Position numbers and translations under genes: made by a program
Shown here: positions 29,090 to 52,021 of the stretch, piece by piece
Numbering within the stretch: position 1 is the stretch's first letter
How the letters are laid out: every line of letters begins with the position of its first letter
Notes under the pieces: model-generated
What the model was told of the DNA's origin: nothing
Databases searched by the model: none
What the model saw: only the letters and a program-made list of their open reading frames with translations
DNA from: an uncultured delta proteobacterium
GTDB lineage: Bacteria > Desulfobacterota > Desulfobaccia > Desulfobaccales > 0-14-0-80-60-11
Assembly: GCA_963768765.1 (NCBI GenBank)
Contig: CAVYJK010000020.1
Location: 257,441 to 321,440 of the forward strand
DNA length: 64,000 bases
Direction of reading: 5' to 3'

Positions 29090-29375
29090 AAAAGGGAAGA
29101 GCGACATAATCCGGGATAAATGGGGTCATCCGACCTAATATCTCTTGAAAAAGGAGAAAGGTTCCAAGCGCCATGCGGATCAACCCCAGGTTCGCCTTTA
29201 TTGAACAACCACGGACCAACGCCATGGTTGAGCCCTTCCTCAGGACGCTCAAGGAGCAGGGCATCCACGACCGGGGGTTCCGGGTACTCAAGGAGGTGAG
29301 GGAGGCGGTAAGAGGCTTTTTGGACCTCTACAACGGGGAGTGGCTGCTGGGTCAAGAAAACCGGATGGGGTACAA
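29090..29375 (+). mobile_element. Remnant of a DDE (rve/integrase-core) IS transposase, C-terminal fragment only
   Basis: QPRTNAMVEPFLRTLKEQ...LKEVREAVRGFLDLYNGEW matches the conserved P-x-T-N-G-x-V-E-R-F-x-R-T-L-K...Y-N tail of IS3/IS481-type transposases. No intact catalytic core or terminal repeats were found. Confidence 0.55.
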
Positions 29376-29516
29376 CCGCCTGGGCATCTCTTTGAGGCGG
29401 TATCTCCCCGAAGAAAAGGTAACCGCATTGAGGGCATGGTCAATTTTTCAGAACCACGCTTCACTTGCTTAGGTTTTTTGTGGTATAAGTCAGGAAAGAA
29501 ACTTGGGGATAGACAC

Positions 29517-30374
29517 ATGAAAATAAACAGAAAAAATTGGTTATGGCCTCTGGTTCTGATGGTGATGATTTCCTTTTTGGCCTTTGCCTCCCCCAAACCG
29601 GCGGCAGCCCTGTCCTCCGGCGATACCCTGGTCGTCACCTGCGTGCCCTTGGGTGCAGTGGTGGGCGTGGCGGCGGCCGGCTATCTGCTTTATAAGAATC
29701 GTTTCTCTCAACCGGCTGATGCCAAGGGCCGCTTGGGATATAAGGGCCCCGGGGAATTTTTCATCGGCGGTTTTTTCGGCGGCTCCTTTGTGCCTGGCAC
29801 CGATTGGACATATCAGATAGGCGGCCAGAATATCACCGCCCGGAAGATGACTATCGACCCTGGGGTCATGGGTGGCATCAAATTGGGCTACTTCTTGGAT
29901 AGTGTTCCCTATTTTGGGGTGGAAGCCGAAGGTAGCATCGGCGACCATCCCCAGCCCTCCCAGACAGTGGCCTTGCATCCGCCACTGGCCGGGGTCACTG
30001 CCGGCCGGGTGCCCAGCCAAACCCTCCTGGCCTGGACCATGGCCTTTCACCTGGTGGGCCGTTATGGCTTCCTGCCGGACCAGGAAGTGCCTTTCGGCCG
30101 GCTGCAACCGTATGTGGGGCTAGGTCCGGGCCTGGTGATGCTTTACGGCGAAGCTGATTCCGCCAAGAACTTCTCCTTGGAGGTGGAGGCCGGCCTGCGC
30201 TATATGTTCACCAAACATCTGGGCGGCTTTCTGGAATATAAATTCAGCAAGCAGTGGAGTGTCGAATTAGAATCCCAACAACTCTTTTATAACAACACCG
30301 GCGTTACCGCCAGCAAAGCGGTCTTCGACTTCGACCGGCATCAGGTGGTGGTCGGCTTGGCATATCATTTTTAA
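29517..30374 (+). CDS. Outer-membrane beta-barrel protein (OmpW/OmpA-beta-barrel-like)
   Basis: Signal peptide MKINRKNWLWPLVLMVMISFLAFA, amphipathic strand pattern, and the C-terminal ...VVVGLAYHF with a terminal Phe. Confidence 0.7.
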   Translation: MKINRKNWLWPLVLMVMISFLAFASPKPAAALSSGDTLVVTCVPLGAVVGVAAAGYLLYKNRFSQPADAKGRLGYKGPGEFFIGGFFGGSFVPGTDWTYQIGGQNITARKMTIDPGVMGGIKLGYFLDSVPYFGVEAEGSIGDHPQPSQTVALHPPLAGVTAGRVPSQTLLAWTMAFHLVGRYGFLPDQEVPFGRLQPYVGLGPGLVMLYGEADSAKNFSLEVEAGLRYMFTKHLGGFLEYKFSKQWSVELESQQLFYNNTGVTASKAVFDFDRHQVVVGLAYHF

Positions 30375-38434: not shown

Positions 38435-38576
38435 GATATGGTTATCATAGCTGTATCTCAGACCCTGCCAGGAGTTTGTTAACCTTCTCCGTGTTCGCCT
38501 TCACTTCCAGAACTGCCACCAGCGCTTCGGCGGCTGTCTCAGAATCTCAAATATCTTATTGGCCGCCCGGGTATTG
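38435..38576. repeat. Direct repeat copy A (142 bp) bounding the island
   Basis: Aligns base-for-base with 48460-48601. There are 137/142 identities, and the inner 64 bp are identical. Confidence 0.9.
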
Positions 38577-38798
38577 CCTGCCTCCAGGTCGGCAAAGGTC
38601 TGTTGCGGGTCTTTGTGGCCGAGCATTTGTCACCGCCCTACGAGAACGCCGATGTACCTCGGAGGCCTGTTTAAACCGCATGGTTGTCGTGGGTTAGAGG
38701 ACAGAAAGGTTAAGAAAATGGCGTCATGAGAAAGAGATTCCCGCGAATAGTCCCGCGAATTATCCATCACTCCGTGATGGTGATGCTGTCAGTTCATG

Positions 38799-39575
38799 TT
38801 AGGCAGCATTGGCTCCTGTTACTGTCCGCACTTTGCCGATGTAAAGAGGTATGTGCCCAGGGATATAATCGTTGCCGGGAACGCAAACTGGGCCGTGTAG
38901 GCGCTGCCCAAGGGGAGCAGTCAAAGGCGCAAGCAAGCTAAGGAAGTTTTGGAGATCACGCTCGTTTGCGTCGATCTGCCTTGTCCTGGTGTTTGGTGTC
39001 ACGAATTCGTGGACTACGAAGAGGGCGTGCGAAGCGTCGACTTGACCCGCATAAGCGAGGGCAGCTGCGATGCCGTAGAACAACTGGTAGCGAAGCTCGC
39101 CAATTCCGGGCAAGTCGCCGGGCTGGTTGCCTAGAAGAGCTTGGCAAAGCCTTTCCAACCGCTCGGGCCGTCGCGACGGCGGTGGTGTCCTGAGTACATT
39201 GGCGACCAGCTCGCCGAAAGGCTCGTCGGCCTTTGCCTCGATGCTAATAGCGATGCGTTGATTGGCCCGTTCAGCGATGCATACCAAGTCGGTGTTCCGT
39301 GGCTCTCCTGGGATGTTGTCGAATGCGACCTTGTGCTCCGGGATGGCTTCGAGGAATGCGGCGCCGTCGATATCGGGATGGGTGCTTAGCAATTCCTGTA
39401 ACTCAACAGGCACGGCGGGGGCAGAGGCTCTGCCGCACCAGGCCTTAGCAAGCTCCTTAGCACTCTTGCCATCGACCCAGTGCCTGGCACCGCCTGCCGG
39501 AGGGGCAAGGCGAAACCAGTCATCGACCGTCGAGATATCTTTGATGATGCGCACTGAAAAACCTCCCATATCCAA
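38799..39575 (-). CDS. Hypothetical protein with a PD-(D/E)xK-like nuclease motif
   Basis: 258-aa ORF. NTDLVCIAERANQRIAISIEAKADEPFG gives a D...E-A-K arrangement. The N-terminus reads HWVDGKSAKELAKAW. It is the last gene of the minus-strand module. Confidence 0.5.
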   Translation of the reverse strand: MDMGGFSVRIIKDISTVDDWFRLAPPAGGARHWVDGKSAKELAKAWCGRASAPAVPVELQELLSTHPDIDGAAFLEAIPEHKVAFDNIPGEPRNTDLVCIAERANQRIAISIEAKADEPFGELVANVLRTPPPSRRPERLERLCQALLGNQPGDLPGIGELRYQLFYGIAAALAYAGQVDASHALFVVHEFVTPNTRTRQIDANERDLQNFLSLLAPLTAPLGQRLHGPVCVPGNDYIPGHIPLYIGKVRTVTGANAA

Positions 39576-39660
39576 AGCATAGCAAAAAATTTTCAGAAAA
39601 TCCGGTAAGTGTTCATTTTGGCAAGGAGATAGTCGCCAACGAGATCTGACGATCTATGAC

Positions 39661-42600
39661 TTAATCCTGGCTGCACTGAGCCGTTAGGTCACTGCGGTCT
39701 TTGGATGGCGGTAAATACCTTCGCGTGATGCCGGCGCCCGCTCTCAATAGCGAAGCCTCTTCTTGATCTTCGCTTCGGAATCCTGCCACGCCGGCTTCGC
39801 GCTCGTAGGACGCGGCGATGCCCTCGAGGACTCCCCCGACATAGGGATAGTCGAAGTGCAAGCGCTCGGCCCAGGCGCGGTATTTCGCGGCGAGCTCGCG
39901 CTCCTGTTCGCCCCCTTCGCCCCGCCAGTGAACGCCGCGAGAGTTACGAACGCCGATATGGAATCCCTCGCCGATTTCAGGGGATGCTATCCCTTCCATC
40001 GCCTCGCACACCGCTTCGCAGGGCCATATGCCGTTCTCGCCCTCGGGCGCCTTGGCGAGCAGTTGACCGAGGCAGTGATCACCAATGTCGGCGCGGGCGT
40101 ACTCGCGGCATAGGCGCCGAACCTCGGCAAGCCACGCGGCGAGCGCCGCCGCGTCGATTCTTCCGTTTTCGTCCGTGCCGGGAATCTTCTTTATCTGGTC
40201 GAGAAGGCGATAGGCTGCCGACGCGACTGCCGCCCGCTGCTCGGGATTCTCGATCCTCCATTCCGGCGGATCCTCTCCTTCGTCACTCCGCTTGTAGGCG
40301 AGCGCCACCGCCTGGACGAATAGCGCCGGCGATTGCGCGATCTGGCTTTCGAGATTCGGGATTCCGTGCTTGCTGTCATTCGAGGGCGTCGATGAAGAGG
40401 AATTCGAGCTGGGCCATTTCATCACGGGTGACGCCCGTGCGGCCATCAAGCGAATCCAGTGCCTCGGAAATGTAGTAGCGGTCGAGCTTGAAATGGCCTG
40501 CTGGTTCGGCATTGACCGTGGCGACGTCGCGCAGCAGCCGCTTGAGGCGGGACGTCTCGATGTCCTTGAAATCCATGTGGACGGCGTGGAAAGCCGCGCG
40601 CGGCCGCCGGGCCTCCAGAAGGCGGTCGATCAGTTCGGTAAGCTCGGCGGGCGTGTGCCGGCCCCAGGACGGGAACACGTCCTTCCAGTACCCGGCGCGG
40701 ATGTCCTCGCCATAACCGTCCAGAAGACGCCAAGTGGATGCCTGGAACGGTGCGCATACAAATAGCCGCGTACAGCTCTTCGGCAGGCAGCCCTTCGGCC
40801 GCAGCCTGCAACACCTCGGCGCGCGAGTCTTCCTCGATCGCCCAAAGGAAGCCCTGCAGGCACCACTCGGCCTTGCTCCGGAGGTCTCCGTCAAGGGAAA
40901 GGCAGCGCCGGATGAAATCGACCCGCGGCTTAACGCCGGTAACGCACGACGCCATGTAATGGCCGACGGTGCCGGCGGCGCCGCTGCCGGTAAGCAATTC
41001 CTTAACACCCTCGAAACCGCGCTCGGTCCATATCTCGGTCATCGCTTCGCGGCGCAGCCTGTCGATCCGCTCGTCGCGCTTCTGATAGTCGAAATCCTCC
41101 TCTTCGATCTCGTCAGCCGATTCCTGCACCCACTGATCGGCGAATAGCCAGCCGTGCCGGATGACCGGATCATGGGGCCGGAGGCTGTCATAGGCTTCGC
41201 GGGCACGGTCGCGGGTCGCTTCCCCAAGCTTCCGGTGGCGGCCGCGTCGGGTGAAGGCGAACCGCCGGATGCGCTCGCGCAGCGCGGCCTTGGCGGCCTC
41301 GCCGGCTTTCCGGGACCATTCATTGATCAGGTCCCAGACCTTGGTCTGGTCTTCGTCGGGCATACCCTGGAGAGACTCGACGAGATCGCCAAGGGTCTTT
41401 TCGTCGTGGGATGGCCAAGCGATCAGGAAATCCAGAGCCTTTCGGTTGAAGTCGTACATCTCTTTGTGCGTGACGACCTGCCCGGCCCCGGAGGCGTCGC
41501 TGCGCCAGCGGGGCCTGTAGCTGTAGTGGCCGATCCGGGAACCCGGTTTGATCTGCTCGATGCAAATCTCCCAGCCGACATCCGGGAAACGCTTGATGAG
41601 CATCTCCAGCGCCTTGACCCTCTGCTCCACCGAGGCCGCCGTCTGCGGCATCCATGACCTGAAGATGGCCTGAAGGCTGGCGTCCGGTTTGTTCATCCAG
41701 TTGTCGTCGATCTTCGGCCGGGAGAGCTGGGCGAGGATCGCCGATACGCGCGGGAGGTTTTGCGGTTTCCAGGCAAGGCACTCCAGCGCCCAGAGAAGGC
41801 CCGTCCGCGACGGCGATGCCCCGAACGAGCCGCTGTCGACCGGCTTGAGAAGGCCAAAGACGACGGGGCTCGTTGCGCCGCAGGTCCTCTTCGATGATCT
41901 TCAGGAATTCATCGGGCGCGGCTTCTGCGTAGCGCGGCAGATCGTGGTCGTGGGAGAGCAGCTTTTCAAGCGTCAGCGGCGTTAGGAGTTTGCGGATCAG
42001 AACTGCGACCCGGCTTTCGACATCGATGCCGAGGCGGCTCTGGAACAGGTTGTTGCCGTGGACCGACAGGATGACGAGTGTCTCGCAGATACCCTCGCGC
42101 AACGCGCCGGAGTGATCGCGTTTCTTGCCGTACAAGGCCGCGGCCCACCTGTTCTCTTCCGGCAGTTCGAGCGCCGGGTCGGACTCGGAAAGGACGTATT
42201 CGGCGGCGACGAAGAACCGGTCGAGGTCCGCCGGCGTGACCATCCTCGCAATCGCAAACAAGGCGTCGATCTTCGAGGCGACACCCCGGTAACGTCCGGC
42301 AGACCACACCGGGCTGTCATCGAACCGAAGCAGGCGCGCGACGTCGTCTTCGATCGCCTCGTACTTTCGATCCGCCACATAGGAGACGATCTCGCGATCC
42401 GCCTCCGGCTCGGCATGCCAGGCGCCGATCAGGGCCATCGGCACGAGGGTCTTTGCCGTTTTGTCATCGCCGGCCCATGCCGGCGTCCTGATCGCTGGCA
42501 TTCTGCGAGAGGCGGCGGCGCAGGATCGTCGGCGAACGGCCCGACTCCCTTGCAAGCCGGTCGACGTCGCCTTTCTCGATTCCCATGGCGATGAGCGCCT

Positions 42601-43820
42601 TCTCGAAGGCGTCGTAGCCGAGCAGGTCGAGCGCTATGTCGGCTTCCGTATCGACCGCGTTGCGGGGACGGAAAACGATGCAATGAAGCCGACGATGGGC
42701 GTCGACGAGTTCGCGCTCGGCGTCTTCGGAATGGACAATCGGGATGAAAGGCACGGAGGACGCAAGAAGCGTCCTGAGCGTCGCCGGAGATGTGAAGACC
42801 GCGGCGAGGTCTTTGAATTGGCGGAGTTCTTCGTCATCGAACAGGCAGGCGAGAAAGGCGAGCGCCTCGTCCCGCGAGTCGGCCGCGACGACGAAGGGCC
42901 TGTCGCTCGGTTTGTCGAGCCACGCCTTGAACGTGCTCCGGTATGCGGCGATCGAGGGTGCGAAGATTTCGGGCGTCAGATGGGGCTCGCTGGCGTTCGC
43001 CCAGCGGCGCCATGCCTGCTCCAGCGTTTCATAGCCGCTGACCGGCAGGGCGAGTTGTTCGGCAAGCCAGATCTGCGCCGGCACCGACTGCTCCAGCCAC
43101 TGCTCAAGATCGCTCGCATCGAAAGCCCTGACGGCCTTCCAGTCGCCGGCCTCGTTCTTCCGTTTCTCCCAGGCGGTCTTGCCGGGCCAGTTGCGAGGTG
43201 TCACGAAGACGAAGGTGCTGTTTGCCCGCTCGGCGGCATCAACCGATTTCAGCCGCGCGGTATAATCGTTCTCGGCTTTGGCACCCGGCTTCTGGTCGGT
43301 GCCGAACTCCCAATAGGAGTTTCCCCTCGGGAATCCAGGGTGTGGCGGCGCCCGCTTCGACGAAACCATCGGAGCCCTTGCGCTGCGCGTTGTCGTAGCC
43401 GGGGAAGTCGACTTGGCGGAGGTCGTTGCCGGTCGAGTGCACCAGCTTCCGCAGAAAGACGGGAAGGTGGGTGCGGGCGTCGATTTGGCTGTCGGCCCAG
43501 TCCTCGATCTGCCTTGCCTTGATAGTCAGGAAATTCGGGACGAAGGCGCGAACTACAACCTGCTTTTCACCGGCGCGGCGCTCCTGCTGGTCGTAGGCGG
43601 CCTGCATATCGAGCAGCCGCTTCCGGTCGGCGCCGAACGCCTTCTCCAGCCTGACCGCCATTTCAGGAGACAGGGCGGATTTTCCGTTAAGGAAGTTCGA
43701 CAGGGCCGGCCTGCCGATGCCGAGCCGCTTGGCGGCGTCCTTCACGGACATGCCAACCGGGATGATGCTCTCGCGGACGTAGATGCCGGGATGGGTGGAC
43801 CTTTTGTACGACGTCGTCAT
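39661..43820 (-). CDS. XRE/HigA-type HTH fused to a ~1385-aa protein (REase-like N-domain plus long helical region); 5 apparent frame breaks
   Basis: Five tracked ORFs (43239-43820, 42464-43369, 41320-42555, 40446-41696/40376-41008, 39661-40512) join into one reading. The junctions are WIPEG/NSYWEFG (~43.32 kb), RRRLSQ/PAIRTPAW (~42.50) and RRNEP/VVFGLLKP (GGGG at 41865-41868). The last two are LYAAI/APFQASTW (~40.76) and FIDALE/DSKHGIPNLE (~40.38). The N-terminus MSVKDAAKRLGIGRPALSNFLNGKSALSPEMAVRLEKAFG is a HigA-like HTH. Confidence 0.65.
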
Positions 43821-43838
43821 TGATACTGCCCTCCAGTA

Positions 43839-43872
43839 AAAATGTATCGTGTTGCGTCACACGATACATTTT
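43839..43872. promoter_or_regulatory. Perfect 14-bp inverted repeat (candidate operator) in the divergent control region
   Basis: AAAATGTATCGTGT (43839-43852), spacer TGCGTC, ACACGATACATTTT (43859-43872). It lies 19 nt upstream of the HTH gene start codon, just 5' of its GGAGGG Shine-Dalgarno. Confidence 0.6.
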
Positions 43873-44102
43873 CCAGTCCGTCATGTCAAGGAGCCAAACA
43901 ATAATATTTCGCGAGCAGAAATAAACCCTGACCGGAAGCAGATAACTGCCCTGATCAGAAACTTATCACATCGCCAAAAACCTTCCATAACCAGACCATA
44001 GCTTGCATTTCTCCGGGTAAGGTGACAATTGTCGATCATGGAGATAGTAGCTATCTGTTTTCCAAGCAAGAAATTTTCTGTTGCGACAAAACCTGTGCTA
44101 AC

Positions 44103-45368
44103 ATGGCTTCCAGCGAGCAGGAAGACATGATGGACGCCGTTAACAGTTCGGAGCAATTCGTCTACGAGGTCTGTGAGAATTCTTTCCTTTCGCTGTGGAG
44201 CTACGTCAACCCTCAGGAGCGCAACCCAGGAAAGGAACTCTGCGATATCCTTGTAGTCTGCGATCCTCATGTCATTGTCGTGAGTGTCAAGGATATCGAG
44301 CTGAAGGATTCCGGCAACCTAAAGGTTGAGTGGGACCGTTGGAAACGCAAAGCAGTTAATGCGTCGAAGAAACAGATTGTAGGAGCAATTCGCTGGCTGG
44401 ATGGGGCTCGTGTCGTTGTGGCCAAGGATGGAACACAGGGGTTACCACTACCGCCCACGGAACGGAGGGTCTACCACCGGATAGCGGTTGCCTTTGGCGG
44501 ACGCCGAGAGATCCCCATTTCTAGTTCCGGTACGAAGGATGAGGCGTTTGTACATGTGCTTGACGAGCGAGCCTTCTATCTGCTGCTCCGATATCTCGAC
44601 ACTATCAGCGACTTCGTCCAATACTTGGCCGATAAGGAGGAGTTCTTTAACCGAGTTGCGATCATCATGGAGGGCGGAGAAGAGGACCTGTTAGCTCTTT
44701 ACATGCACAGCGGACGGCAGTTCCCTCAGGGATTAGATATGGTCATTCTTCAAGATGATCTCTGGCAAGGCTTCAATGCCAGGTCCGAGTTCCTTGCTAA
44801 ACTGGACAGGGATCGCGACAGCTATGTTTGGGACCGGCTGATTGAGTCATTCTGCGTCGGGGGGTTTAGAGGAGATACCTGGCAAGGCCCAGGGATGGCC
44901 GAATCGGAGCAGGCCTTGCGGGTTCTCGCGCGTGAGGATCGCTTTTGCAGGCGCGTTCTTGGACGGGCGTTCAGGGAATTCCTTGAACAGAGCAAGGCTC
45001 GCATGACCCGTTCCCGTTGCCTGCAGTCGTTGAGCGGGGTTGTTTATGTGTTCTTGACCTACGATTCGGACAGCAGTCCAGAGGAACGAAAACGTGAGCT
45101 ACTCGTTCGGTGCGTCGCGTCACTGTGTCTCTTTCCTAAGGCATCCACAATCATGGGCATCGACATCAATGTCCCTGGGGAGTTGCCGCGTGGCGGGTAT
45201 ACGAGCGATCTCGTGATGTTGCATTCAGACGAGGGCGAATGGCCTGAGGAGTACGTTGAGAAGGCTCGTTTATTCAGGGATGAACTAGGGTACTTTCGGG
45301 ACCCGAACGAAACCAGATTCCATGAAGACGAGTACCCCGAGAGGAATGGAGAAGACGAATCCCAATAA
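44103..45368 (+). CDS. NERD/PD-(D/E)xK-like N-terminal domain protein with an uncharacterised C-terminal region
   Basis: SEQFVYEVCENSFLSLWSYVNPQERNPGKELCDILVVCDPHVIVVSVKDIELKD resembles the NERD core, but has S-V-K where E-x-K is usual. The likely start is the ATG at 44103. An acidic tail ends the protein. Confidence 0.5.
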   Translation: MASSEQEDMMDAVNSSEQFVYEVCENSFLSLWSYVNPQERNPGKELCDILVVCDPHVIVVSVKDIELKDSGNLKVEWDRWKRKAVNASKKQIVGAIRWLDGARVVVAKDGTQGLPLPPTERRVYHRIAVAFGGRREIPISSSGTKDEAFVHVLDERAFYLLLRYLDTISDFVQYLADKEEFFNRVAIIMEGGEEDLLALYMHSGRQFPQGLDMVILQDDLWQGFNARSEFLAKLDRDRDSYVWDRLIESFCVGGFRGDTWQGPGMAESEQALRVLAREDRFCRRVLGRAFREFLEQSKARMTRSRCLQSLSGVVYVFLTYDSDSSPEERKRELLVRCVASLCLFPKASTIMGIDINVPGELPRGGYTSDLVMLHSDEGEWPEEYVEKARLFRDELGYFRDPNETRFHEDEYPERNGEDESQ

Positions 45369-45637: not shown

Positions 45638-47920
45638 ATGGGTATGCTGAGGAAGGTCATCTCGATAAGGAAGGTAGGCCGCTTCCTGAGATATTCCGCT
45701 ACCGGAGACGTTGAGTTTAAGCGCTATAACCTAGTGTTTGCCGAGAACGGGCGGGGCAAGACAACCCTCTGCGCAATTCTCCGTTCCCTCCAGGCCGGGG
45801 ACACCGCTCATGTAATTGGCCGCACTACGCTTGGAAGTCCGGGCGCGCCGGAGATTAGGATTCTCCTTGATGACGGACCTGCAGTCCTCAGCGCAGGGGC
45901 ATGGAGCACCACAGTCCCAAACCTTGCTATCTTCGATTCAACATTTGTTTCTGAGAACATTTACTCTGGCGATGTGGTTGACCTCAGCCATAAACGCAGT
46001 CTCTACGGGGTTATCGTGGGAGCGCATGGCGTGGCCCTTGCGCGCCAGATCGAAGGATACGACGCTGCAAGTCGGGAAAAGAGTACCGAGATAAGAGAAA
46101 AACGTGCGGAGGTTCAGGCCCTGGTGCCGCAAGGTTTGGCCGTCGAGGCGTTCCTGCCCCTCCAGGAAGACTGGGCTATAGATGCTAAGATCGCCGAGAA
46201 GGTAAAGGAGCTCAAAGCCGTACAGCAGGCAGAGGAGATTAGGACTCGCCCCGCCCTTTCAGAGCTGAACTTACCAAGATTTTGGATTTCATGCGAAAAA
46301 TTGCTCGGCAAGAGCATCGAAGGCATTGCGAAGGATGCAGAACGCCGCATAAACATCCAGATTGAAGAGCACGCCATGCATGAGCGTGGCGAGCCTTGGT
46401 TGTTCGAAGGCTTGGGCTACATACGTAACAATGAGTGCCCTTTTTGCGGCCAATCTATCAATGGTGTTGCCCTGATTGGTGCTTATAGAGACTATTTCAG
46501 TGAAGCTTACGACGCCTTGCGGGCTGAGATTACGACGATGCACCAGCAAATCGCCGATGCCTTTGGCGATCGGGTGATTGCGTCGATTGATAGAATTATA
46601 GACCAGAATAAAGCGGGCGTCGAATTTTGGTCAAGGTTTTGCACAATCACACCTCCCGTTTTGGACGTCGAAGTGTCGGGGACCTTGTTCAACCTCCGGA
46701 ATGCCGCATTACCTCTCCTCGAACGCAAGGCCGCTACGCCGCTTGAGCACGTGTCTGTAGATGCATCATTCACCGGCGCTCTTGATGCTTTTATGTCGGC
46801 ACGCAGAAGTGCTGAAACTTACAACCAGGCCGTGCGGGCGGCAAATGGCGTTATTGCTCAAAAGAAGGCTGCCACCGGTACCGTTGACATCAGAGTCGTT
46901 CAGAGCGCCCTCACCCTCCTTCAGGCGATAAAGAAGCGACACGAGCCAGAGGGCAAGGAAGCGTGTAAAAAATACATGGACGCGATTACAGAAAAAAAGA
47001 CCATCGAAGACAAGAAGACGAGGGTCAAAGTGAGGTTGGACGAGCACACGCGTGAGGTAATCGGCCACTATGAGAACACCATCAATGATCTACTCGAAGA
47101 CTTCCACGCAGGATTCCGGATTACTGGAACCGATCATGGTTATCCTGGAGGCGTTGCCAGCACTAGCTATCAAATCCTCATCAATGAAACGCCCGTAGAA
47201 TTAGGTGACCCCAACAGTCCCCTCACTATCCCGAGCTTCAAGAACACACTCAGCTCTGGCGACAAGAGCACGCTTGCACTTGCTTTCTTCCTATCTCAAA
47301 TAGAGCACGACCCTGCGAAGGCCAGCAAGATTGTCATTTTCGACGATCCGTTCAGTAGCCAAGATAGCTTTCGAAAGGATTGTACTGTTCAAAAGATCAA
47401 GAAATGTGGTGATGAATGTCACCAGGTCATCGTATTGTCACACGATCAGAGCTTCCTTAAGCGCATATGGGACCGTCTCGCCATACAAGCCGGAGACCGA
47501 AAATGTCTTCAACTAATGCGTGTCGGTTTACGCGACACGAAAATCTGTGAATGGGACATTGAGGAGGCGACGCAGTCTCCTTTCGCTGCAGACCGGAAAT
47601 CGCTGGCCGCCTACTACATTAGGGGCGAAGGTTCTCCCAGAGATATAGTGGTCAAGATCAGGCCAGTTTTAGAGACTTACTGTAGGAACCTCTATCCGGG
47701 CGATTTCGGTGAAGATGCTCTTGGCACTATTATCGGAAAGATTCGGGCCAACGGCCCCGTCCACCAGCTCTTTCCTTTGTTAGAAAAAGTGGAAGCACTT
47801 AACGAGTATGCGCGTCGTTACCACCACGGAGAGAATCCAAACGCCGCCACAGAACCTATTGACGAAACCGAACTTCATGGTTTCGTGAAAAAGACCTTAT
47901 CCATTATTGGATGTTGCTAA
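45638..47920 (+). CDS. AAA_13-type ABC/Rad50-like ATPase with a CxxC hook and an RloC/PrrC-like C-terminal tail
   Basis: Walker A FAENGRGKTT. Helical insert with ECPFCGQ (C267/C270, DNA ~46436-46447). Signature LSSGDKSTLALAFFL, Walker B KIVIFDDPFSSQD, and VIVLSHD. The C-terminal ~150 aa carry KIRPVLETY (R-x3-E), with His at PVHQ and RRYHHGEN. Confidence 0.7.
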   Translation: MGMLRKVISIRKVGRFLRYSATGDVEFKRYNLVFAENGRGKTTLCAILRSLQAGDTAHVIGRTTLGSPGAPEIRILLDDGPAVLSAGAWSTTVPNLAIFDSTFVSENIYSGDVVDLSHKRSLYGVIVGAHGVALARQIEGYDAASREKSTEIREKRAEVQALVPQGLAVEAFLPLQEDWAIDAKIAEKVKELKAVQQAEEIRTRPALSELNLPRFWISCEKLLGKSIEGIAKDAERRINIQIEEHAMHERGEPWLFEGLGYIRNNECPFCGQSINGVALIGAYRDYFSEAYDALRAEITTMHQQIADAFGDRVIASIDRIIDQNKAGVEFWSRFCTITPPVLDVEVSGTLFNLRNAALPLLERKAATPLEHVSVDASFTGALDAFMSARRSAETYNQAVRAANGVIAQKKAATGTVDIRVVQSALTLLQAIKKRHEPEGKEACKKYMDAITEKKTIEDKKTRVKVRLDEHTREVIGHYENTINDLLEDFHAGFRITGTDHGYPGGVASTSYQILINETPVELGDPNSPLTIPSFKNTLSSGDKSTLALAFFLSQIEHDPAKASKIVIFDDPFSSQDSFRKDCTVQKIKKCGDECHQVIVLSHDQSFLKRIWDRLAIQAGDRKCLQLMRVGLRDTKICEWDIEEATQSPFAADRKSLAAYYIRGEGSPRDIVVKIRPVLETYCRNLYPGDFGEDALGTIIGKIRANGPVHQLFPLLEKVEALNEYARRYHHGENPNAATEPIDETELHGFVKKTLSIIGCC

Positions 47921-47986: not shown

Positions 47987-48361
47987 ATGAAATTATTTAA
48001 TCCGTCATCAGAACACCCTGCAAGGGCAATACAGGCTTGGCAGATTCTCGTAGGTCTGGCAATGGACCGAAAGACAATCACCTATTTGGCATTGTCTCGC
48101 CTCATGTATCACACGGATGCAGCAGGTGTCCTGCCCCAAATTTTAGGGCACATTGCGTTCTACTGCATAGACAACGAGCTGCCACCACTCACTTCGATTG
48201 TTGTTGGAAAGGGGAGAGGAACACCTGGAGCCGAAATTCCTGTCGATCTCTCGCAGATAGACGCCCAACGAGAGGCAGTTTATGAATTCGATTGGTACAA
48301 TGTTTACCCCCCGTCTGAGAATGAGTTGAAATCAGCATTTGACCGCCATCTTGAAAGGTAA
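47987..48361 (+). CDS. Small (124-aa) hypothetical protein, third gene of the plus-strand module
   Basis: RKTITYLALSRLMYHTDAAGVLPQILGHIAFYCIDNELPPLTSIVVGKGRGTPG recalls the wHTH of MGMT/alkyltransferase-like DNA-binding domains (T-Y-G-x-L-A...L-P...V-V). Tentative. Confidence 0.45.
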   Translation: MKLFNPSSEHPARAIQAWQILVGLAMDRKTITYLALSRLMYHTDAAGVLPQILGHIAFYCIDNELPPLTSIVVGKGRGTPGAEIPVDLSQIDAQREAVYEFDWYNVYPPSENELKSAFDRHLER

Positions 48362-48459: not shown

Positions 48460-48601
48460 GATATGGTTATCATATCTGTATCTCAAACCCTGCCAGGAGT
48501 TTGTTAGCCTTCTACGTGTTCGCCTTCACTTCCAGAGCTGCCACCAGCGCTTCGGCGGCTGTCTCAGAATCTCAAATATCTTATTGGCCGCCCGGGTATT
48601 G
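48460..48601. repeat. Direct repeat copy B (142 bp), overlapping the 3' end of the o-spanin gene
   Basis: 137/142 identical to 38435-38576. It covers the last 24 codons plus stop of ORF 48526-48870 and 66 nt downstream. Confidence 0.9.
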
Positions 48602-48870
48602 GCCGCGCCCAGCTCCGCCGACTCTCGCAAATCCACCTTATAGGTAGCCTCTTTAAAAGCGCTCTCGGTAGGGAAGAAGAGGCCCGCCGGCTGCCCCGTC
48701 TTAGAATCAATGAGCTTCTTCGTATTCAGGGCCGGTTCCGCCGGCATCTTTATATCGGGCAGGGGCTTTAGCGCCTCCTTGGGGATTTGCGGGCAGGGCG
48801 TGGCGCACCCCGCCAGGAGAATTAAAGTCATCAGCAAGACCATCCAGGTCATTTTTCTGCTGTAATTCAT
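48526..48870 (-). CDS. o-spanin (Rz1-like outer-membrane lipoprotein), overlapped architecture
   Basis: Lipobox LILLAGC, a Pro-rich mature region (TPCPQIPKEALKPLPDIKMPAEP), and a start inside the i-spanin gene in another frame. Confidence 0.65.
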   Translation of the reverse strand: MNYSRKMTWMVLLMTLILLAGCATPCPQIPKEALKPLPDIKMPAEPALNTKKLIDSKTGQPAGLFFPTESAFKEATYKVDLRESAELGAANTRAANKIFEILRQPPKRWWQLWK

Positions 48871-49111
48871 TGAGTTTACCCCGCTTCTTAGTGGCCTTGG
48901 CCTTTATTTCTTCCCGTTCCTGGTAGAGGAGAACCTGCTGCTGGGAGATTGCGGCCGCGGTCTGAGCCGTGGCTAATTGGGCCTGGGCCTTCAACTTGGC
49001 CTCATGTTCCCATTTCAGCACCCCCAGGATCGCCAAGACCGCCAGGCCCCCCATGATCCAGCCCCCCAGCCGGGAGGATAAAACAGACCAGATTATTGAC
49101 AGAATGGGCAT
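48707..49111 (-). CDS. i-spanin (Rz-like)
   Basis: N-terminal TM LGGWIMGGLAVLAILGVL, then a coiled-coil (EAKLKAQAQLATAQTAAAISQQQVLLYQEREEIKAKA). Its position is after the endolysin genes. Confidence 0.65.
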   Translation of the reverse strand: MPILSIIWSVLSSRLGGWIMGGLAVLAILGVLKWEHEAKLKAQAQLATAQTAAAISQQQVLLYQEREEIKAKATKKRGKLNELQQKNDLDGLADDFNSPGGVRHALPANPQGGAKAPARYKDAGGTGPEYEEAH

Positions 49112-49115
49112 ATGG

Positions 49116-49424
49116 CTAATTTACCTCCATCTTTGCGGCCTTTTCCGGGGAAGGAGGCACCACCTTCCCCTCAACACTGGCGATGGTTTGGCTGAAGGTA
49201 GTCTTTGAGAACATCGAGGCCCCCAGGCCCCCGGTAGCCGCACCCAGCATCCCCAGGAGCAGGTTCACCGTGGGGCCGTCAAGTCCCTTTTTCAAGATAA
49301 AAACATGAAAGATAATAGAGGCTGAGGCAATGGCCACCACCGGGGCGGCGAGAACTACGGCGAGAACCGCCATGGAATTGACGATCTGATTGCTGCCACT
49401 AACAAATTCCCGCCAGAAGTTCAT
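49116..49424 (-). CDS. Small two-TM membrane protein (holin/antiholin candidate)
   Basis: 102 aa with two hydrophobic helices (MAVLAVVLAAPVVAIASASIIF; LLLGMLGAATGGLGASMF). It lies between the amidase and the spanins, with a 4-nt overlap with the amidase. Confidence 0.5.
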   Translation of the reverse strand: MNFWREFVSGSNQIVNSMAVLAVVLAAPVVAIASASIIFHVFILKKGLDGPTVNLLLGMLGAATGGLGASMFSKTTFSQTIASVEGKVVPPSPEKAAKMEVN

Positions 49425-49951
49425 GCCGCATACCCCTTAACCAGTTGGATAAACCCGACCTTGTCCACATTGTTACCCGGGCAATGATGGGTCGTCCGGG
49501 GGTCTTCCCGGTGCAACCTCATGGTGTCGGGATCGATGCCCAGGACGGCGCTCAGGATGGCTATAGCGGCAACGGCGTTGTCCCGCACCATCGCACCCCG
49601 CCCTAGGTCGAAATCCTCCGTGTCATAGTCGCCCAACATTTCAACGCCCAAGGCTAGGCTATTCCACGATGGCGAGTGGACGCCCGGGACGGTGAGGGGG
49701 GTGAACACCCAGATTTGCAGATCGTCAATGAACAGGTGGGGCCCCCCGGACCAGCCCTGGTCGTCCCGATAGTAGGATTGCAATCCCAGGATATGCTGGT
49801 AGATAAGGCCATTCGGCCTATTAGCCAGGTTGGGCTCCCCGGTGTTGTGCAGGACAATAAAGCCCGGTTGCCAGGCATCCCAAATCAAGCTCTTGACATA
49901 CTCCTTAAAGGTTTCAGGAATGAAGTTCTGTCCTACAATACCTTTCCACAT
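49421..49951 (-). CDS. N-acetylmuramoyl-L-alanine amidase (Amidase_2/PGRP-type endolysin)
   Basis: FIVLHNTGEP...GWSGGPHLFIDD...HHCPGNNVD zinc-amidase motifs. Confidence 0.8.
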   Translation of the reverse strand: MWKGIVGQNFIPETFKEYVKSLIWDAWQPGFIVLHNTGEPNLANRPNGLIYQHILGLQSYYRDDQGWSGGPHLFIDDLQIWVFTPLTVPGVHSPSWNSLALGVEMLGDYDTEDFDLGRGAMVRDNAVAAIAILSAVLGIDPDTMRLHREDPRTTHHCPGNNVDKVGFIQLVKGYAA

Positions 49952-51008: not shown

Positions 51009-52021
51009 TTATTGGACCACCGGAAACTTGCGCCGTCCGGCCTGACTCTGCCAGGCGGTGCGGGCGTCAGGGACCGGGAACTTCCGCCGAAGGTCAAGGG
51101 GCGGGATCTCCTGGTACTCCACCTGGACGATGAACTGCTTCACGTACAGTCCCGGGTCGAACTGCCGGTATTCCACCTGGCCGATAATCTGGGGGACCTT
51201 GATAAGCGGTGGAATCTCTGATATTCCGCCTGGCCGATGACCTGGGAAACCTCGATAAGCGGCGGAGCTTCCCATTCCGCCTGGGCTACTGCCTGGAAAA
51301 CCTTTAGCTTTGCGGGAAGAGGGAAAACACCATTTCTGATCGCATCAATTTCTGTATCCGGAAGGATGTCATTGAAAATCACCATCTCGTCCAATTTGCC
51401 GTCCAGGTAATTGCCTGGATTGGCCAAGGCACCGATGGTAGTGTCTGCTGCTCCCACACGAAGCTGGTTGGAGGGAGTATTGGAGTAATTCGCCACTGTA
51501 CCAGCAGTCGCATCATGGAGCCTGACCTGGCGAACCCTATTTACACCGTCAATAACCACTGCCAGGTGGTACCAGCGTCCAGCCTGGACAGTGCAAGCAT
51601 CCCAGAACTCACCACCGGAGGCGCTGTAGCCCCAGTTGACTCTCAAATACCCGCCAGTAAAGCCGATCTCGATAGTAAGGTCTGTCTGCCAAAGCCACTT
51701 GCTGTAAATATTGGCCCATTGGGAGGCACCCGGTACTGTTTCCAACTTAAACCAACAGCATAAAGTAAATTTTTTAGTTGCATCGCCGGACTTAAGCGGA
51801 TAGCCCGCATCAAGATTACCATCAGCGATAGGAAAATATTGACTGGAGATCAGCTTCAAAATCACGCAGGCCGCTCCTTCTCGGTAATCACCAGTGTCAG
51901 CGGTAGGCGAATTGGCAGAGGCGTGAGGGTATTGACCACCCTTGGAATCTGCGGTTAAAGCACCGCTCTCGAAGCGCCAGAGGGCCTTGCACCGAGGATC
52001 GGTGGAAAAATCGTTGGCCAT
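51009..52021 (-). CDS. LamG/concanavalin-like tail fibre protein with a C-terminal 17-aa tandem-repeat region; frame break inside the repeats (~51.21 kb)
   Basis: CKALWRFESG...LDGKLDEMVIFNDIL is typical of Laminin_G_3 phage proteins. The C-terminus continues from ORF 51140-52021 into ORF 51009-51275 through repeats PPLIEVSQVIGQAEYQ / PPLIKVPQIIGQVEYRQ. Confidence 0.65.
51117..51325. repeat. Coding tandem repeat, about 4 units of 54/53/51/~50 bp
   Basis: Unit starts are at 51117 (ACTCCACCTGG), 51171 (ATTCCACCTGG), 51224 (ATTCCGCCTGG) and 51275 (ATTCCGCCTGG). The 53-bp unit coincides with the reading-frame switch. Confidence 0.8.

What the first reader, a model, noticed from the sequence alone, without database searches (positions are those of the whole stretch)
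38799..43872. HigA-type HTH fused to a ~1385-aa REase-like/helical protein, followed by a PD-(D/E)xK-like protein
The minus-strand module starts with a HigA-family HTH (MSVKDAAKRLGIGRPALSNFLNGKSALSPEMAVRLEKAFG) but no HigB toxin gene precedes it. Instead the reading continues for ~4.16 kb. It passes through a segment with a D...E-x-G...K arrangement (GSDGFVEAGAATPWIPEG-NSYWEFGTDQKPGAKAENDY). Next comes a very long helical region (LLWALECLAWKPQNLPRV...). It ends in a conserved-looking C-terminus (NSRGVHWRGEGGEQERELAAKYRAWAERL). A 258-aa gene with a D...EAK nuclease-like motif follows. I cannot place either protein in a named family. An antitoxin-type DNA-binding head on a giant sensor/effector-like body next to a nuclease is the kind of architecture seen in defence islands. 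The gene needs 5 frame corrections, so it is either damaged or mis-sequenced.
Basis: partly seen in the sequence, partly recalled or inferred. Interest (0 to 1): 0.8.

Follow-up and report, generated by a model that had tools for sequence, protein, structure and literature searches.

The report
Self-regulated HTH–nuclease–solenoid giant gene
The split reading frames are one 1356-residue gene from a very large, uncharacterised, horizontally mobile family labelled "HigA antitoxin"; it is built like a single-protein immune sensor, its frameshifts look like assembly errors, and the small nuclease gene next to it is not a conserved partner.

Summary
The fusion is real. Removing six single-base insertions (not five) gives a stop-free 1356-aa ORF at 39744..43820(-). 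It is 79-93% identical over full length to thousands of intact single proteins from many phyla.

Only the HigA-type HTH is recognised by Pfam, NCBIfam or PDB sequence search. AlphaFold models plus Foldseek give this order:
- HTH
- FokI-like PD-(D/E)xK nuclease
- a STAND/AAA+-like module (best hits Avs3, Avs4, Apaf-1, RFC) with no Walker A
- a ~750-aa HEAT-like solenoid

A conserved palindrome overlaps the gene's own promoter in 58 of 80 loci. It is missing from the four HTH-less loci, so the HTH is probably an autorepressor.

No neighbouring gene is conserved. The DUF6946 (PD-(D/E)xK clan) gene follows it in only one sister contig.

Each of the six insertions sits at a site that is polymorphic among relatives and adds an allele seen there. 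The copy shows no decay. A mixed-haplotype consensus artefact is therefore the best explanation.

Best reading: an autoregulated, Avs/DSR2-like single-gene defence nuclease carried on mobile elements. Function is inferred, not shown.

The parts
43861..43889 (-). Sigma-70-like promoter of the big gene: TTGACA, 17-nt spacer, TATCGT
   Evidence: It is the only promoter-like site in 39500..44100, matching 10 of 12 positions. The sequence was read directly. The same -35 / operator / -10 layout recurs in unrelated loci.
43844..43867 (-). Palindromic operator GTATCGTGT-GACGCA-ACACGATAC: perfect 9-bp arms that overlap the -10 hexamer
   Evidence: It is unique in the window, and 0 of 100 shuffles gave a match. 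The core GTGTNNCGNNACAC (at most 1 mismatch) lies within 160 nt upstream of the gene in 58 of 80 loci. The background count is 68 over 1.4 Mb with both strands counted; because the motif is palindromic I take that as about 34 sites. It is absent from the 4 HTH-less loci.
39744..43820 (-). The whole gene. It encodes 1356 aa once six extra bases are removed; the stop codon is at 39744-39746.
   Evidence: The repaired ORF has no internal stop. It is 91% identical in protein to L074 and 95.4% identical in DNA to L028.
43572..43820 (-). HigA/Xre-type helix-turn-helix domain (residues 1-83)
   Evidence: Pfam HTH_3 and HTH_31, TIGR02607 above its cutoff, and PDB HigA antitoxins 2icp, 4mcx and 6chv.
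43106..43529 (-). PD-(D/E)xK / restriction-endonuclease-like domain (residues ~98-238)
   Evidence: AlphaFold model mf66694468a4a has pLDDT 70-96 across this stretch. Foldseek hits FokI 2fok_A (prob 0.99, 174 columns) and a phage restriction endonuclease. Invariant residues are D145, D153, E173, K183 and D187 in P0001 numbering. I assigned D153 to the start of strand 2 and E173 to strand 3 by comparing these residues with the strand list of the model.
42025..42910 (-). STAND/AAA+-like alpha/beta core plus helical domains (residues ~304-598), with no Walker A motif
   Evidence: Foldseek PDB hits are Avs3 8dgc_B (E 1.1e-5), Avs4 8dgf_A (5.8e-5), RFC, Apaf-1, Dark, CED-4 and NRC1 NB-ARC. Viral RFC and AAA+ clamp loaders also hit. 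Strand 1 reads FVVAA, followed by D-S and then a helix; there is no GxxxxGK[ST].
39747..42024 (-). HEAT-like alpha-solenoid (residues ~599-1356). The most variable stretch is 40372-41123. The highly conserved NSRGVHWRGEGGEQERELAAKYRAW motif is at 39871-39945.
   Evidence: Model mce7c9820543b is all-alpha with pLDDT 79.9. Foldseek hits importin-beta, CRM1, SF3B1 and CAND1 at E ~1e-4.
43319..43326 (-). Extra base 1: GAAAC where relatives read GAAA or GAAC
42496..42499 (-). Extra base 2: GCCAGCG where relatives read GCC-GCG or CCA-GCA
41869..41869 (-). Extra base 3: GAGCCCC where relatives read GA[T/C/G/A]CCC
40774..40776 (-). Extra base 4: GAGCTGTAC where relatives read GAGC-GTA or GACT-GTAC
40380..40382 (-). 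Extra base 5: CTCGAATGAC where relatives read CTCG-ATCAC or CTGA-ATGAC
39790..39790 (-).
38799..39575 (-). DUF6946 (PD-(D/E)xK clan) gene, 168 nt downstream on the same strand. It is a neighbour in this island, not a conserved partner.
   Evidence: Pfam PF22187, E 1.4e-36. Clan assignment from PMC10584680. Among 79 other loci it is found only in L074. DNA homology to other loci ends at about 39687, before this gene.

Best explanation
SHOWN:
- 39744..43820(-) is one gene from a very large uncharacterised family. The family has 6,731 clusters at 50% identity.
- Nearly all listed members are ~1350-aa single proteins.
- The domain order is HigA-type HTH, then a PD-(D/E)xK nuclease fold, then a STAND/AAA+-like module without a P-loop, then a ~750-aa HEAT-like solenoid.
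- The conserved DNA unit is the gene's own promoter and operator, the ORF, and about 60-90 nt of 3' tail.
- This unit sits in unrelated flanks in many phyla. Its GC content does not track the host's. Carriers include F-type conjugative elements, plasmids and, here, an island beside a prophage-like lysis cassette.

INFERRED (strong):
- The HTH binds the palindrome that overlaps its own promoter and represses transcription of the gene.
- The six +1 frameshifts in this window are consensus errors from piling up reads of two or more co-occurring variants. The gene is probably intact in the organism.

INFERRED (moderate):
- The protein works as a single-chain immune sensor-effector, like Avs/NLR proteins or DSR2.
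- The solenoid would recognise a phage or plasmid product.
- The degenerate NOD-like module would pass on a conformational or oligomeric switch without canonical ATP binding.
- The N-terminal nuclease would then cut DNA. The outcome would be abortive infection or destruction of the invader.
- Autorepression would keep the level of this potentially toxic protein low.
For: Family and fusion:
-. There are 293 confirmed genome hits. Nearly all of the best 80 loci kept are single intact ORFs.

Fold:
- N-terminal part. Top PDB hits are Avs3 and Avs4, followed by Apaf-1, CED-4 and RFC; FokI matches the nuclease domain.
- C-terminal part: searches give a HEAT-like solenoid. One search adds viral RFC/AAA+ proteins and a restriction endonuclease.

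Autoregulation:
-. The operator lies between or over the -35 and -10 hexamers in 58 of 80 loci.
- About 0.35 matches would be expected in that amount of sequence, a figure I derive from the background rate.
- It is absent from the 4 HTH-less Latescibacterota loci.

Mobility:
- DNA identity to L001 stops at the ends of the ORF.
- Gene GC is about 0.46-0.66 while host flanks range from 0.36 to 0.70.
- It occurs on plasmids, including the conjugative pS19502.
- In L022 the tra genes TraU, TrbC and TraN lie upstream, and an SMC-like ATPase and an nSTAND3 gene lie downstream. In L006 a weak TraW N-terminal match lies downstream.

Defence context:
- Immediate neighbours include type I R-M, SoFic, CapP, PDC-S06 and PDC-S24.
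- In the window the island also carries an AAA_13 / PDC-S06 gene.
- The solenoid is the most variable region and the nuclease domain the most conserved.

Artefact:
- All six changes are +1 insertions.
- Each lies at a polymorphic site. Five repeat an allele carried by the seven close relatives; the sixth repeats an allele seen only in the more distant L011.
- P(>=5 of 6) = 8e-4.
- There are no stop codons after repair.
- Only 24 private codons differ, with a nonsynonymous/synonymous count ratio of 0.6, like intact lineages.
- Sixteen L074-private alleles are scattered among more than 200 non-L074 alleles, although the flanks are 96-100% L074-like.
- The closest relative, L028, carries the same kind of insertion. 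I take its MFD isolate name to mean a long-read MAG.
Against: - No member has been tested. Defence is inferred only from architecture and context.
- PADLOC (2023) models, including its Avs models, do not match.
- Walker A is absent and Walker B is not conserved, so the NOD-like assignment rests on Foldseek alone. TM-scores are low (0.2-0.3) and the alignments are partial.
- The canonical ExK triad reads E-F-G. The proposed lysine, K183, lies 10 residues further on, so catalytic competence is unproven.
- Many neighbours are housekeeping genes.
- The family is almost absent from sequenced phages.
- The artefact reading cannot be verified without the reads. I could not identify the source or sequencing technology of the window.
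Confidence: 0.5

Rival explanations
1. Genuine pseudogene. The window's copy really carries six frameshift mutations and is a dead remnant of a costly defence or selfish gene.
For: - The sequence as given is broken into seven frames.
- About 6 of 80 loci show frame breaks. L030, from a sequenced isolate, has a 4-nt deletion. Inactivation therefore does occur in this family.
Against: - There are six insertions, no deletions and no nonsense codon.
- The private branch is tiny, with the same nonsynonymous/synonymous count ratio as intact lineages.
- Every insertion repeats an allele seen among relatives at a polymorphic site: P ~1e-3 to 3e-5.
- The aligned flanks have no indels and neighbouring genes are intact.
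Confidence: 0.15
2. A STAND-type transcription factor in the style of MalT, AfsR or LAL regulators. The HTH would control target genes in response to a ligand sensed by the NOD-like module and the solenoid. The nuclease-like domain would be non-catalytic.
For: - HTH plus a STAND-like module plus helical repeats is also the plan of STAND regulators (my own knowledge of MalT and AfsR).
- A conserved operator exists.
- The ExK motif is non-canonical.
Against: - The only conserved operator found is in the gene's own promoter.
- No neighbour or candidate regulon is conserved.
- Distribution is sporadic across phyla, with GC mismatch and carriage on conjugative elements.
- About 5% of the listed representatives, and 4 loci, lack the HTH altogether. 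The body therefore functions without DNA-binding regulation.
- The nuclease domain is the most conserved region and has invariant acidic and lysine residues.
Confidence: 0.12
3. A selfish addiction or restriction-like module. One form is a fused toxin-antitoxin, with the HigA head controlling a nuclease toxin. Another is a Type IV (Mrr-like) restriction enzyme with a large regulatory tail. Either would persist by post-segregational killing or by attacking modified DNA, not by sensing phage proteins.
For: - The HigA-family head.
- A FokI/restriction-endonuclease-like fold.
- Carriage on plasmids and conjugative elements.
- It spreads as a self-contained cassette.
Against: - No HigB or other toxin partner is present.
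- A 750-aa solenoid and a NOD-like module are not features of toxin-antitoxin systems or Mrr-type enzymes.
- The best structural matches are Avs3 and Avs4.
- This rival overlaps the main hypothesis. Only the trigger differs.
Confidence: 0.15
4. One reading: a two-gene operon in which the giant protein senses and the DUF6946 nuclease executes.
For: - The two genes are on the same strand, 168 nt apart.
- DUF6946 belongs to the PD-(D/E)xK clan.
- The pair recurs in L074.
Against: - L074 is the same island in a close relative, with flanks 96-100% identical, so it is not independent evidence.
- The other 78 loci have no DUF6946.
- DNA conservation of the mobile unit stops before DUF6946.
- The giant protein carries its own nuclease domain.
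Confidence: 0.05

Closest known systems
Avs3 / Avs4 (AVAST antiviral STAND NTPases; PDB 8dgc, 8dgf)
   Same: - Single large protein with an N-terminal nuclease effector, a central NOD-type module and a C-terminal helical-repeat sensor.
- These are the top Foldseek PDB hits for residues 88-600.
- Distribution is sporadic and horizontally transferred, in defence or mobile contexts.
   Different: - No Walker A, and Walker B is not conserved.
- An extra N-terminal HigA-type HTH with a self-operator.
- The sensor is HEAT-like rather than TPR-like.
- No sequence similarity to PADLOC Avs models.
- No trigger is known.
DSR2 (Sir2 effector plus HEAT-like sensor, single-protein defence; PMC11263360, listed)
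   Same: - An N-terminal effector fused to a long HEAT-like solenoid. According to that abstract, DSR2 is activated by a phage tail tube protein.
- There is no canonical NTPase cycle.
   Different: - The effector here is a PD-(D/E)xK nuclease fold, not Sir2.
- This family has an intervening AAA+/STAND-like module and an HTH.
- No homology was detected.
HigA antitoxin (TIGR02607; PDB 2icp, 4mcx, 6chv)
   Same: - The first ~85 residues are a bona fide HigA-type HTH scoring above the NCBIfam cutoff.
- The domain probably represses its own promoter through a palindrome, as antitoxins do.
   Different: - There is no HigB partner.
- The protein is about 13 times longer.
- The "HigA family addiction module antitoxin" label on the whole protein comes from one domain and is misleading.
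FokI / Mrr-type PD-(D/E)xK restriction endonuclease domains
   Same: - The fold matches (FokI, prob 0.99; phage restriction endonuclease).
- An invariant Asp sits before strand 2 and an invariant Glu sits in strand 3.
   Different: - The ExK reads E-F-G. The candidate lysine lies 10 residues downstream.
- No Pfam nuclease family matches.
STAND transcription regulators (MalT, AfsR/SARP-LAL)
   Same: HTH plus a NOD-like module plus a helical-repeat sensor in one chain.
   Different: - Those regulators have functional P-loops and defined regulons.
- This family has a nuclease domain and only a self-operator, and it behaves as mobile cargo.

Membership tests
HigA antitoxin (type II TA) | HigA/Xre HTH domain matching TIGR02607 | tested here: met
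   59.8 bits against a cutoff of 47.7 on P0001. HTH_3 is found on the window fragment.
HigA antitoxin (type II TA) | Adjacent HigB (RelE-fold) toxin gene in a two-gene operon | tested here: not met
   No such ORF lies near the gene in the window. No neighbour is conserved across 79 loci.
HigA antitoxin (type II TA) | Small (~100 aa) stand-alone protein | tested here: not met
   1356 aa, and the family is consistently ~1350 aa.
Avs / antiviral STAND NTPase | Central STAND NTPase with Walker A GxxxxGK[S/T] and Walker B hhhhD[D/E] | tested here: not met
   The fold resembles Avs3, Avs4 and Apaf-1. However, strand 1 is followed by D-S and then a helix, with no Gly-rich loop or lysine. An aspartate at a Walker-B-like position is present in only one clade.
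Avs / antiviral STAND NTPase | N-terminal effector domain and C-terminal repeat sensor in one polypeptide | tested here: met
   Restriction-endonuclease-like fold and HEAT-like solenoid.
Avs / antiviral STAND NTPase | Match to curated Avs profile HMMs | tested here: not met
   PADLOC gave no hit at E<=0.1 for any fragment, apart from a spurious DrmMI match at 0.012.
Avs / antiviral STAND NTPase | Activation by binding of a conserved phage protein, followed by oligomerisation | not testable with these tools
   Needs experiments.
PD-(D/E)xK nuclease superfamily (big gene, residues ~98-238) | alpha-beta-beta-beta-alpha-beta core fold | tested here: met
   The model shows strands at P0001 residues 136-139, 154-158, 168-174 and 204-208 with flanking helices. 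FokI matches with prob 0.99.
PD-(D/E)xK nuclease superfamily (big gene, residues ~98-238) | Catalytic D...(D/E)xK triad | tested here: inconclusive
   D153 and E173 are invariant and, by my reading of the strand list, sit at the expected strand positions. The motif reads E173-F-G175. The nearest invariant lysine is K183.
DUF6946 (PF22187) for the 258-aa gene | Pfam model above the gathering score | tested here: met
   126.4 bits against a cutoff of 27.
Conserved two-gene system (big gene + DUF6946) | Synteny across independent loci | tested here: not met
   1 of 79 other loci, and that locus is the same island.
Decaying pseudogene | Nonsense codons, deletions and relaxed nonsynonymous/synonymous ratio accompanying the frameshifts | tested here: not met
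   0 stops and 0 deletions. There are 15 synonymous and 9 nonsynonymous private codons, similar to intact relatives.

The most novel reading that the evidence does not exclude
This family has thousands of 50%-identity clusters across most bacterial phyla and is labelled "HigA antitoxin" wherever a source names it. The most novel reading is that it is an undescribed class of single-gene innate-immune receptor. It would be an NLR/Avs-like sensor that has lost nucleotide binding. It would switch on a PD-(D/E)xK nuclease through a pseudo-NOD module and a HEAT solenoid. It would carry its own repressor head and operator. On this reading it spreads between phyla as a self-contained promoter-operator-ORF cassette on conjugative elements and prophages.
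Probability: 0.35. Interest if true: 0.75.

Novelty: new variant of a known kind. Interest (0 to 1): 0.55.

Why it matters
- If the family is a defence system, it adds a very abundant and currently invisible member to the bacterial immune repertoire. It has 6,731 clusters at 50% identity and is absent from PADLOC, from Pfam beyond the HTH, and from the PDB.
- It would be a natural example of an NLR/Avs-type architecture that works without a P-loop. That bears on how STAND receptors are switched.
- The built-in HTH and self-operator would show how a toxic effector can be kept in check and moved between hosts as a single gene.
- Thousands of database entries named "HigA family addiction module antitoxin" are mis-described.
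- The "allele-doubling" frameshift pattern is a recognisable signature of mixed-haplotype consensus errors in widely shared mobile genes. It could be used to flag false pseudogenes in metagenome assemblies.

Tried and rejected
Family and structure searches:
- PADLOC on all fragments gave nothing for the big gene.
- Pfam and NCBIfam at lenient thresholds on four intact members found only HTH families.
- PDB sequence and profile searches found only HigA/Xre HTHs.

Looking for a partner gene or a mobility mechanism:
- Neighbour clustering over 79 loci found no conserved partner.
- I considered a tRNA or ncRNA as the integration target of the 10-kb island. None was found.
- The 3' tail of the gene shows no significant RNA structure (z = 0.47) and no terminator. 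I did not test an integron attC-type fold beyond this.
- I found no transposase, integrase or terminal inverted repeat bounding the conserved unit. How the cassette moves remains unexplained.

Source of the window:
- Exact-protein look-ups for three window proteins did not find the source contig.

Literature:
- Searches for DUF6946, DACNV, and Avs/STAND/HEAT/HTH or HigA combinations found no description of this family.

Rejected ideas:
- Homopolymer sequencing error as the cause of the frameshifts. Only one of the six sites lies in a run.
- A phage origin for the family. No full-length hit exists among 50,697 phage records.

Full report
**1. What is in the sequence**

On the minus strand between 43820 and about 39660, the ORF listing gives six overlapping pieces in three frames. 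They span 43239-43820, 42464-43369, 41320-42555, 40446-41696, 40376-41008 and 39661-40512. An intact 258-aa ORF follows at 38799-39575.

The three-frame translation let me stitch a continuous protein. It also needed a sixth near the C-terminus (...SYEREA | WQDSEAKIKKRLRY*).

The first piece carries HTH_3/HTH_31. The 258-aa ORF is Pfam DUF6946, E 1.4e-36. Pfam places that family in the PD-(D/E)xK clan CL0236 (PMC10584680). GC is 0.62-0.64 over 40-44 kb, against 0.51-0.55 on either side.

**2. The fusion is real and belongs to a very large family**

The stitched protein finds more than 2,900 relatives. The best 120 are 79-93% identical, and most are full-length proteins of ~1356 aa. Where a source names them, it calls them HigA family addiction module antitoxin.

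Named sources include Alphaproteobacteria, Syntrophobacteraceae, Chromatiaceae, Paraburkholderia and Paenibacillus. A scan of one genome per species confirms 293 encoded relatives at 46-95% identity. These come from Proteobacteria, Firmicutes, Planctomycetota, Cyanobacteria, Nitrospirota, Acidobacteriota, Latescibacterota, Spirochaetia and others.

By tblastn almost all are one uninterrupted ORF. The window copy gives seven segments in three frames. An exhaustive HMMER search with residues 89-1283 finds 6,731 50%-identity clusters at E<=1e-3, of which 2,863 are at E<=1e-30. Nearly all of those listed are ~1350 aa. About 5% begin directly after the HTH.

Cluster members include isolates of Burkholderia thailandensis, Pseudomonas fulva, Stutzerimonas stutzeri and Cytobacillus firmus. 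All carry only the HigA label.

**3. Domain anatomy**

Pfam, NCBIfam and PDB sequence or profile searches recognise nothing beyond the HigA-type HTH.

I built two sub-alignments from 22-26 members of two clades that are about 46% identical to each other. I then predicted structures from them.

*Residues 88-600* (pLDDT 76.7, pTM 0.72) contain three elements:
- an alpha/beta nuclease-type core;
- a helical linker;
- a four-stranded parallel alpha/beta domain followed by helical bundles.

Foldseek against the PDB gave these hits:
- Avs3 bound to terminase (8dgc_B, E 1.1e-5)
- Avs4 (8dgf_A, E 5.8e-5)
- RFC clamp loader, Apaf-1, Dark, CED-4 and the NRC1 NB-ARC domain
- FokI (prob 0.99 over 174 columns)

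The viral library returns RFC/AAA+ clamp loaders and a restriction endonuclease.

TM-scores are low (0.2-0.3) because each match covers only part of the model. I therefore treat "STAND/AAA+-like" as a fold-level assignment only.

The family has no Walker A. The first strand (FVVAA, residues 311-315) is followed by invariant D316-S317 and then a helix. An aspartate at a Walker-B-like position exists in only one clade.

In the nuclease domain D145, D153, E173, K183 and D187 are invariant. I assign D153 to the start of strand 2 and E173 to strand 3 by comparing these residues with the strand list of the model. The motif reads E-F-G rather than ExK.

*Residues 575-1358* are all-alpha (pLDDT 79.9). 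They match importin-beta, CRM1, SF3B1 and CAND1 at E about 1e-4. This is a HEAT-like solenoid.

Between the two clades the nuclease domain is the most conserved region (54% identity). The middle of the solenoid is the least conserved (34%).

**4. The HTH has a conserved target in the gene's own promoter**

I aligned the upstream regions of loci whose flanks are otherwise unrelated. This shows a palindrome. In the window it reads GTATCGTGT-GACGCA-ACACGATAC at 43844-43867. It is unique in the 64 kb.

It overlaps the -10 hexamer of the only sigma-70-like promoter found in 39.5-44.1 kb. That promoter is TTGACA, a 17-nt spacer, then TATCGT, at 43889-43861.

The core GTGTNNCGNNACAC (at most 1 mismatch) lies within 160 nt upstream of the gene in 58 of 80 loci. 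It usually sits exactly between a TTGAC-type -35 and a TACAAT-type -10. Several of the remaining loci carry weaker versions.

The background count is 68 over 1.4 Mb with both strands counted. Because the motif is palindromic I take that as about 34 sites. From that rate, about 0.35 matches would be expected in the upstream sequence searched.

The four Latescibacterota loci whose proteins lack the HTH also lack the motif. The simplest reading is autorepression by the HTH head.

**5. No conserved partner; mobile, defence-rich settings**

All-against-all clustering of ORFs within 3.5 kb of the gene finds no family shared across independent loci.

DUF6946 occurs downstream only in L074. Five near-identical Syntrophobacteraceae loci instead have a DACNV-domain gene downstream.

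Of 144 immediate neighbours, some are housekeeping genes. Others are:
- type I R-M subunits
- Fic/SoFic
- M78/CapP
- PDC-S06 and PDC-S24
- integrases
- a TOTE primase and an MmeI-type enzyme

In L022 the F-type transfer genes TraU, TrbC and TraN lie upstream of the gene. An SMC-like ATPase and an nSTAND3 gene lie downstream. In L006 a weak TraW N-terminal match lies downstream. A full-length copy lies on the conjugative plasmid pS19502 of Shewanella baltica.

Sixteen of 72,556 plasmid records carry a copy covering at least 80% of the query. No phage record does.

DNA identity between the window and L001 (88.5%) runs only from 43837 to 39687. Among close relatives the shared block is the promoter/operator, the ORF and 60-90 nt of 3' tail.

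Gene GC stays at about 0.46-0.66 while host flanks range from 0.36 to 0.70. The gene deviates from its host in both directions. This indicates recent transfer.

**6. The window's island**

159-nt direct repeats (93% identical) at 38435-38593 and 48460-48618 bracket about 10 kb. The right-hand copy contains the 3' end of a 114-aa lipoprotein gene.

That gene ends a run that looks like a lysis cassette: an Amidase_2 gene with a weak endolysin match, a 102-aa protein, and 134-aa and 114-aa proteins. Further right lie many minus-strand ORFs without Pfam matches and a Laminin_G_3 protein. The region is prophage-like.

To the left are chromosomal genes: MscS, cytochrome c and an OMP beta-barrel protein.

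Contig L074 has the same flanks, the same big gene and the same DUF6946 gene. It has different cargo between the lipoprotein gene and the big gene.

**7. Are the frameshifts real?**

Against L074, the segment 44041-38515 aligns at 93.6% with exactly six gaps. All six are single extra bases in the window, and only one lies in a homopolymer run.

Removing them gives a 1356-codon ORF with no stop.

In a 15-sequence alignment every extra base sits at a position where relatives differ. For five sites the added base is the alternative allele carried by the seven close relatives. For the sixth (41869) it is an allele seen only in the more distant L011. For example, relatives read GAAA|TCC or GAAC|TCC and the window reads GAAAC|TCC.

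A random insertion meets this criterion with p = 0.173. So P(>=5 of 6) = 8e-4 and P(6 of 6) = 2.7e-5.

The window copy has only 24 private codons relative to L028 and L074 (15 synonymous, 9 nonsynonymous). L028 has 128 and L074 has 235. The window has only one private codon at sites where five relatives agree.

Its flanks are 96-100% identical to L074, yet the gene is only 92% identical. It shares 16 alleles exclusively with L074, scattered along the whole gene. It shares none exclusively with L028, even though it is closer to L028 overall.

L028 is the nearest relative. I take its MFD isolate name to mean a long-read MAG. It shows two insertions of the same kind, one at a Tyr/His (TAC/CAC) polymorphism.

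Together these features fit a consensus built from reads of two or more co-occurring variants of a widely shared gene. They do not fit gradual decay. I cannot prove this without the reads. Exact-protein look-ups did not find the source contig.

**8. Interpretation**

*Shown:*
- one fused gene;
- its domain order at fold level;
- family size and distribution;
- absence of a conserved partner;
- the conserved self-operator;
- cassette-like conservation of the unit.

*Inferred with good support:*
- autorepression by the HTH;
- the artefactual nature of the six insertions.

*Inferred with moderate support:* a single-chain immune sensor-effector analogous to Avs proteins or DSR2. In this model the solenoid senses, the P-loop-less NOD-like module transmits, and the nuclease executes.

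*Membership.* The protein fails as a HigA antitoxin because it has no HigB partner and is the wrong size. It fails as an Avs/STAND NTPase because it has no Walker A and matches no Avs model. I therefore file it as a new variant of the NLR/Avs-like kind, not as a member of either family.

Each is weighed in its own entry. None fits the full set of observations as well.

Noticed in passing
window 38435-38593 and 48460-48618: 159-nt direct repeats (93% identical) bracket a ~10-kb island. The right copy holds the 3' end of a 114-aa lipoprotein gene. Contig L074 has the same flanks but different cargo in the part next to the lipoprotein gene. No integrase, tRNA or Rfam hit explains the duplication.
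   Followed up: partly
window 44022-45368(+), 45638-47920(+), 47987-48361(+): The island also holds a 448-aa protein with no family match, a 760-aa AAA_13 ATPase that matches the PADLOC candidate PDC-S06 (E 6e-59), and a 124-aa ORF. This may be a second, separate defence candidate, divergent from the big gene.
   Followed up: no
window 48526-49951(-) and on to ~64 kb: A gene run resembling a lysis cassette: an Amidase_2 gene with a weak endolysin match, a 102-aa protein, a 134-aa protein and a 114-aa lipoprotein with an LAGC lipobox. It is followed by about 14 kb of same-strand ORFs without Pfam hits and a Laminin_G_3 protein. This looks like the late region of a prophage or tailocin, with the island at its end.
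   Followed up: partly
window 51116-51303: Four tandem ~52-nt-spaced copies of a 30-nt unit (ATTCCGCCTGGCCGATGACCTGG...) at the 3' end of the Laminin_G_3 gene (51140-52021).
   Followed up: no
window 9410-12611(-): Three consecutive ORFs of similar size (355, 355 and 357 aa) whose ends overlap by 4 nt. They may be a tandem paralogue array. They were not examined.
   Followed up: no
L022 4011-17164; L006 455-6092: In the Rhodocyclaceae locus L022 the genes TraU, TrbC and TraN lie upstream of the big gene, and an SMC-like ATPase and an nSTAND3 gene lie downstream. In L006 a weak TraW N-terminal match lies downstream. L006 and L022 share at least 1.2 kb of upstream DNA. This resembles a cargo hotspot in a conjugative element.
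   Followed up: partly
L001-L004, L008 (e.g. L001 14283-15620): In Syntrophobacteraceae loci a 445-aa DACNV-domain (PF21751, 'probable sensor') gene lies 158 nt downstream of the big gene, and a PIN/PhdYeFM pair lies upstream.
   Followed up: no
L028 about 9003 and 9210 (gene positions 1003 and 1210): The closest relative also carries +1 insertions that duplicate alternative alleles (for example GGCT-ACG becomes GGCTCACG at a Tyr/His polymorphism). I take its MFD isolate name to mean a long-read MAG. The same artefact signature may be common for this gene in long-read metagenome bins.
   Followed up: partly
L024, L026, L027, L031: Latescibacterota copies start at about residue 95, so they have no HTH, and they lack the upstream palindrome. 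This is a natural HTH-less form of the family.
   Followed up: partly
L074 (JAGVMV010000034.1) versus window 29340-30374 and 48526-48870: L074 is binned as Thermoleophilia (Actinomycetota). The near-identical window carries an OMP beta-barrel protein and a lipoprotein that could be an outer-membrane spanin. Those are features of a diderm host, so the bin label may be wrong.
   Followed up: no
window 39687-39743: About 55-90 nt after the stop codon is still conserved among close relatives whose flanks are otherwise unrelated. In L001 the ORF reads through this stretch, giving 1374 aa. It has no significant RNA fold and no terminator, and its role is unknown.
   Followed up: partly
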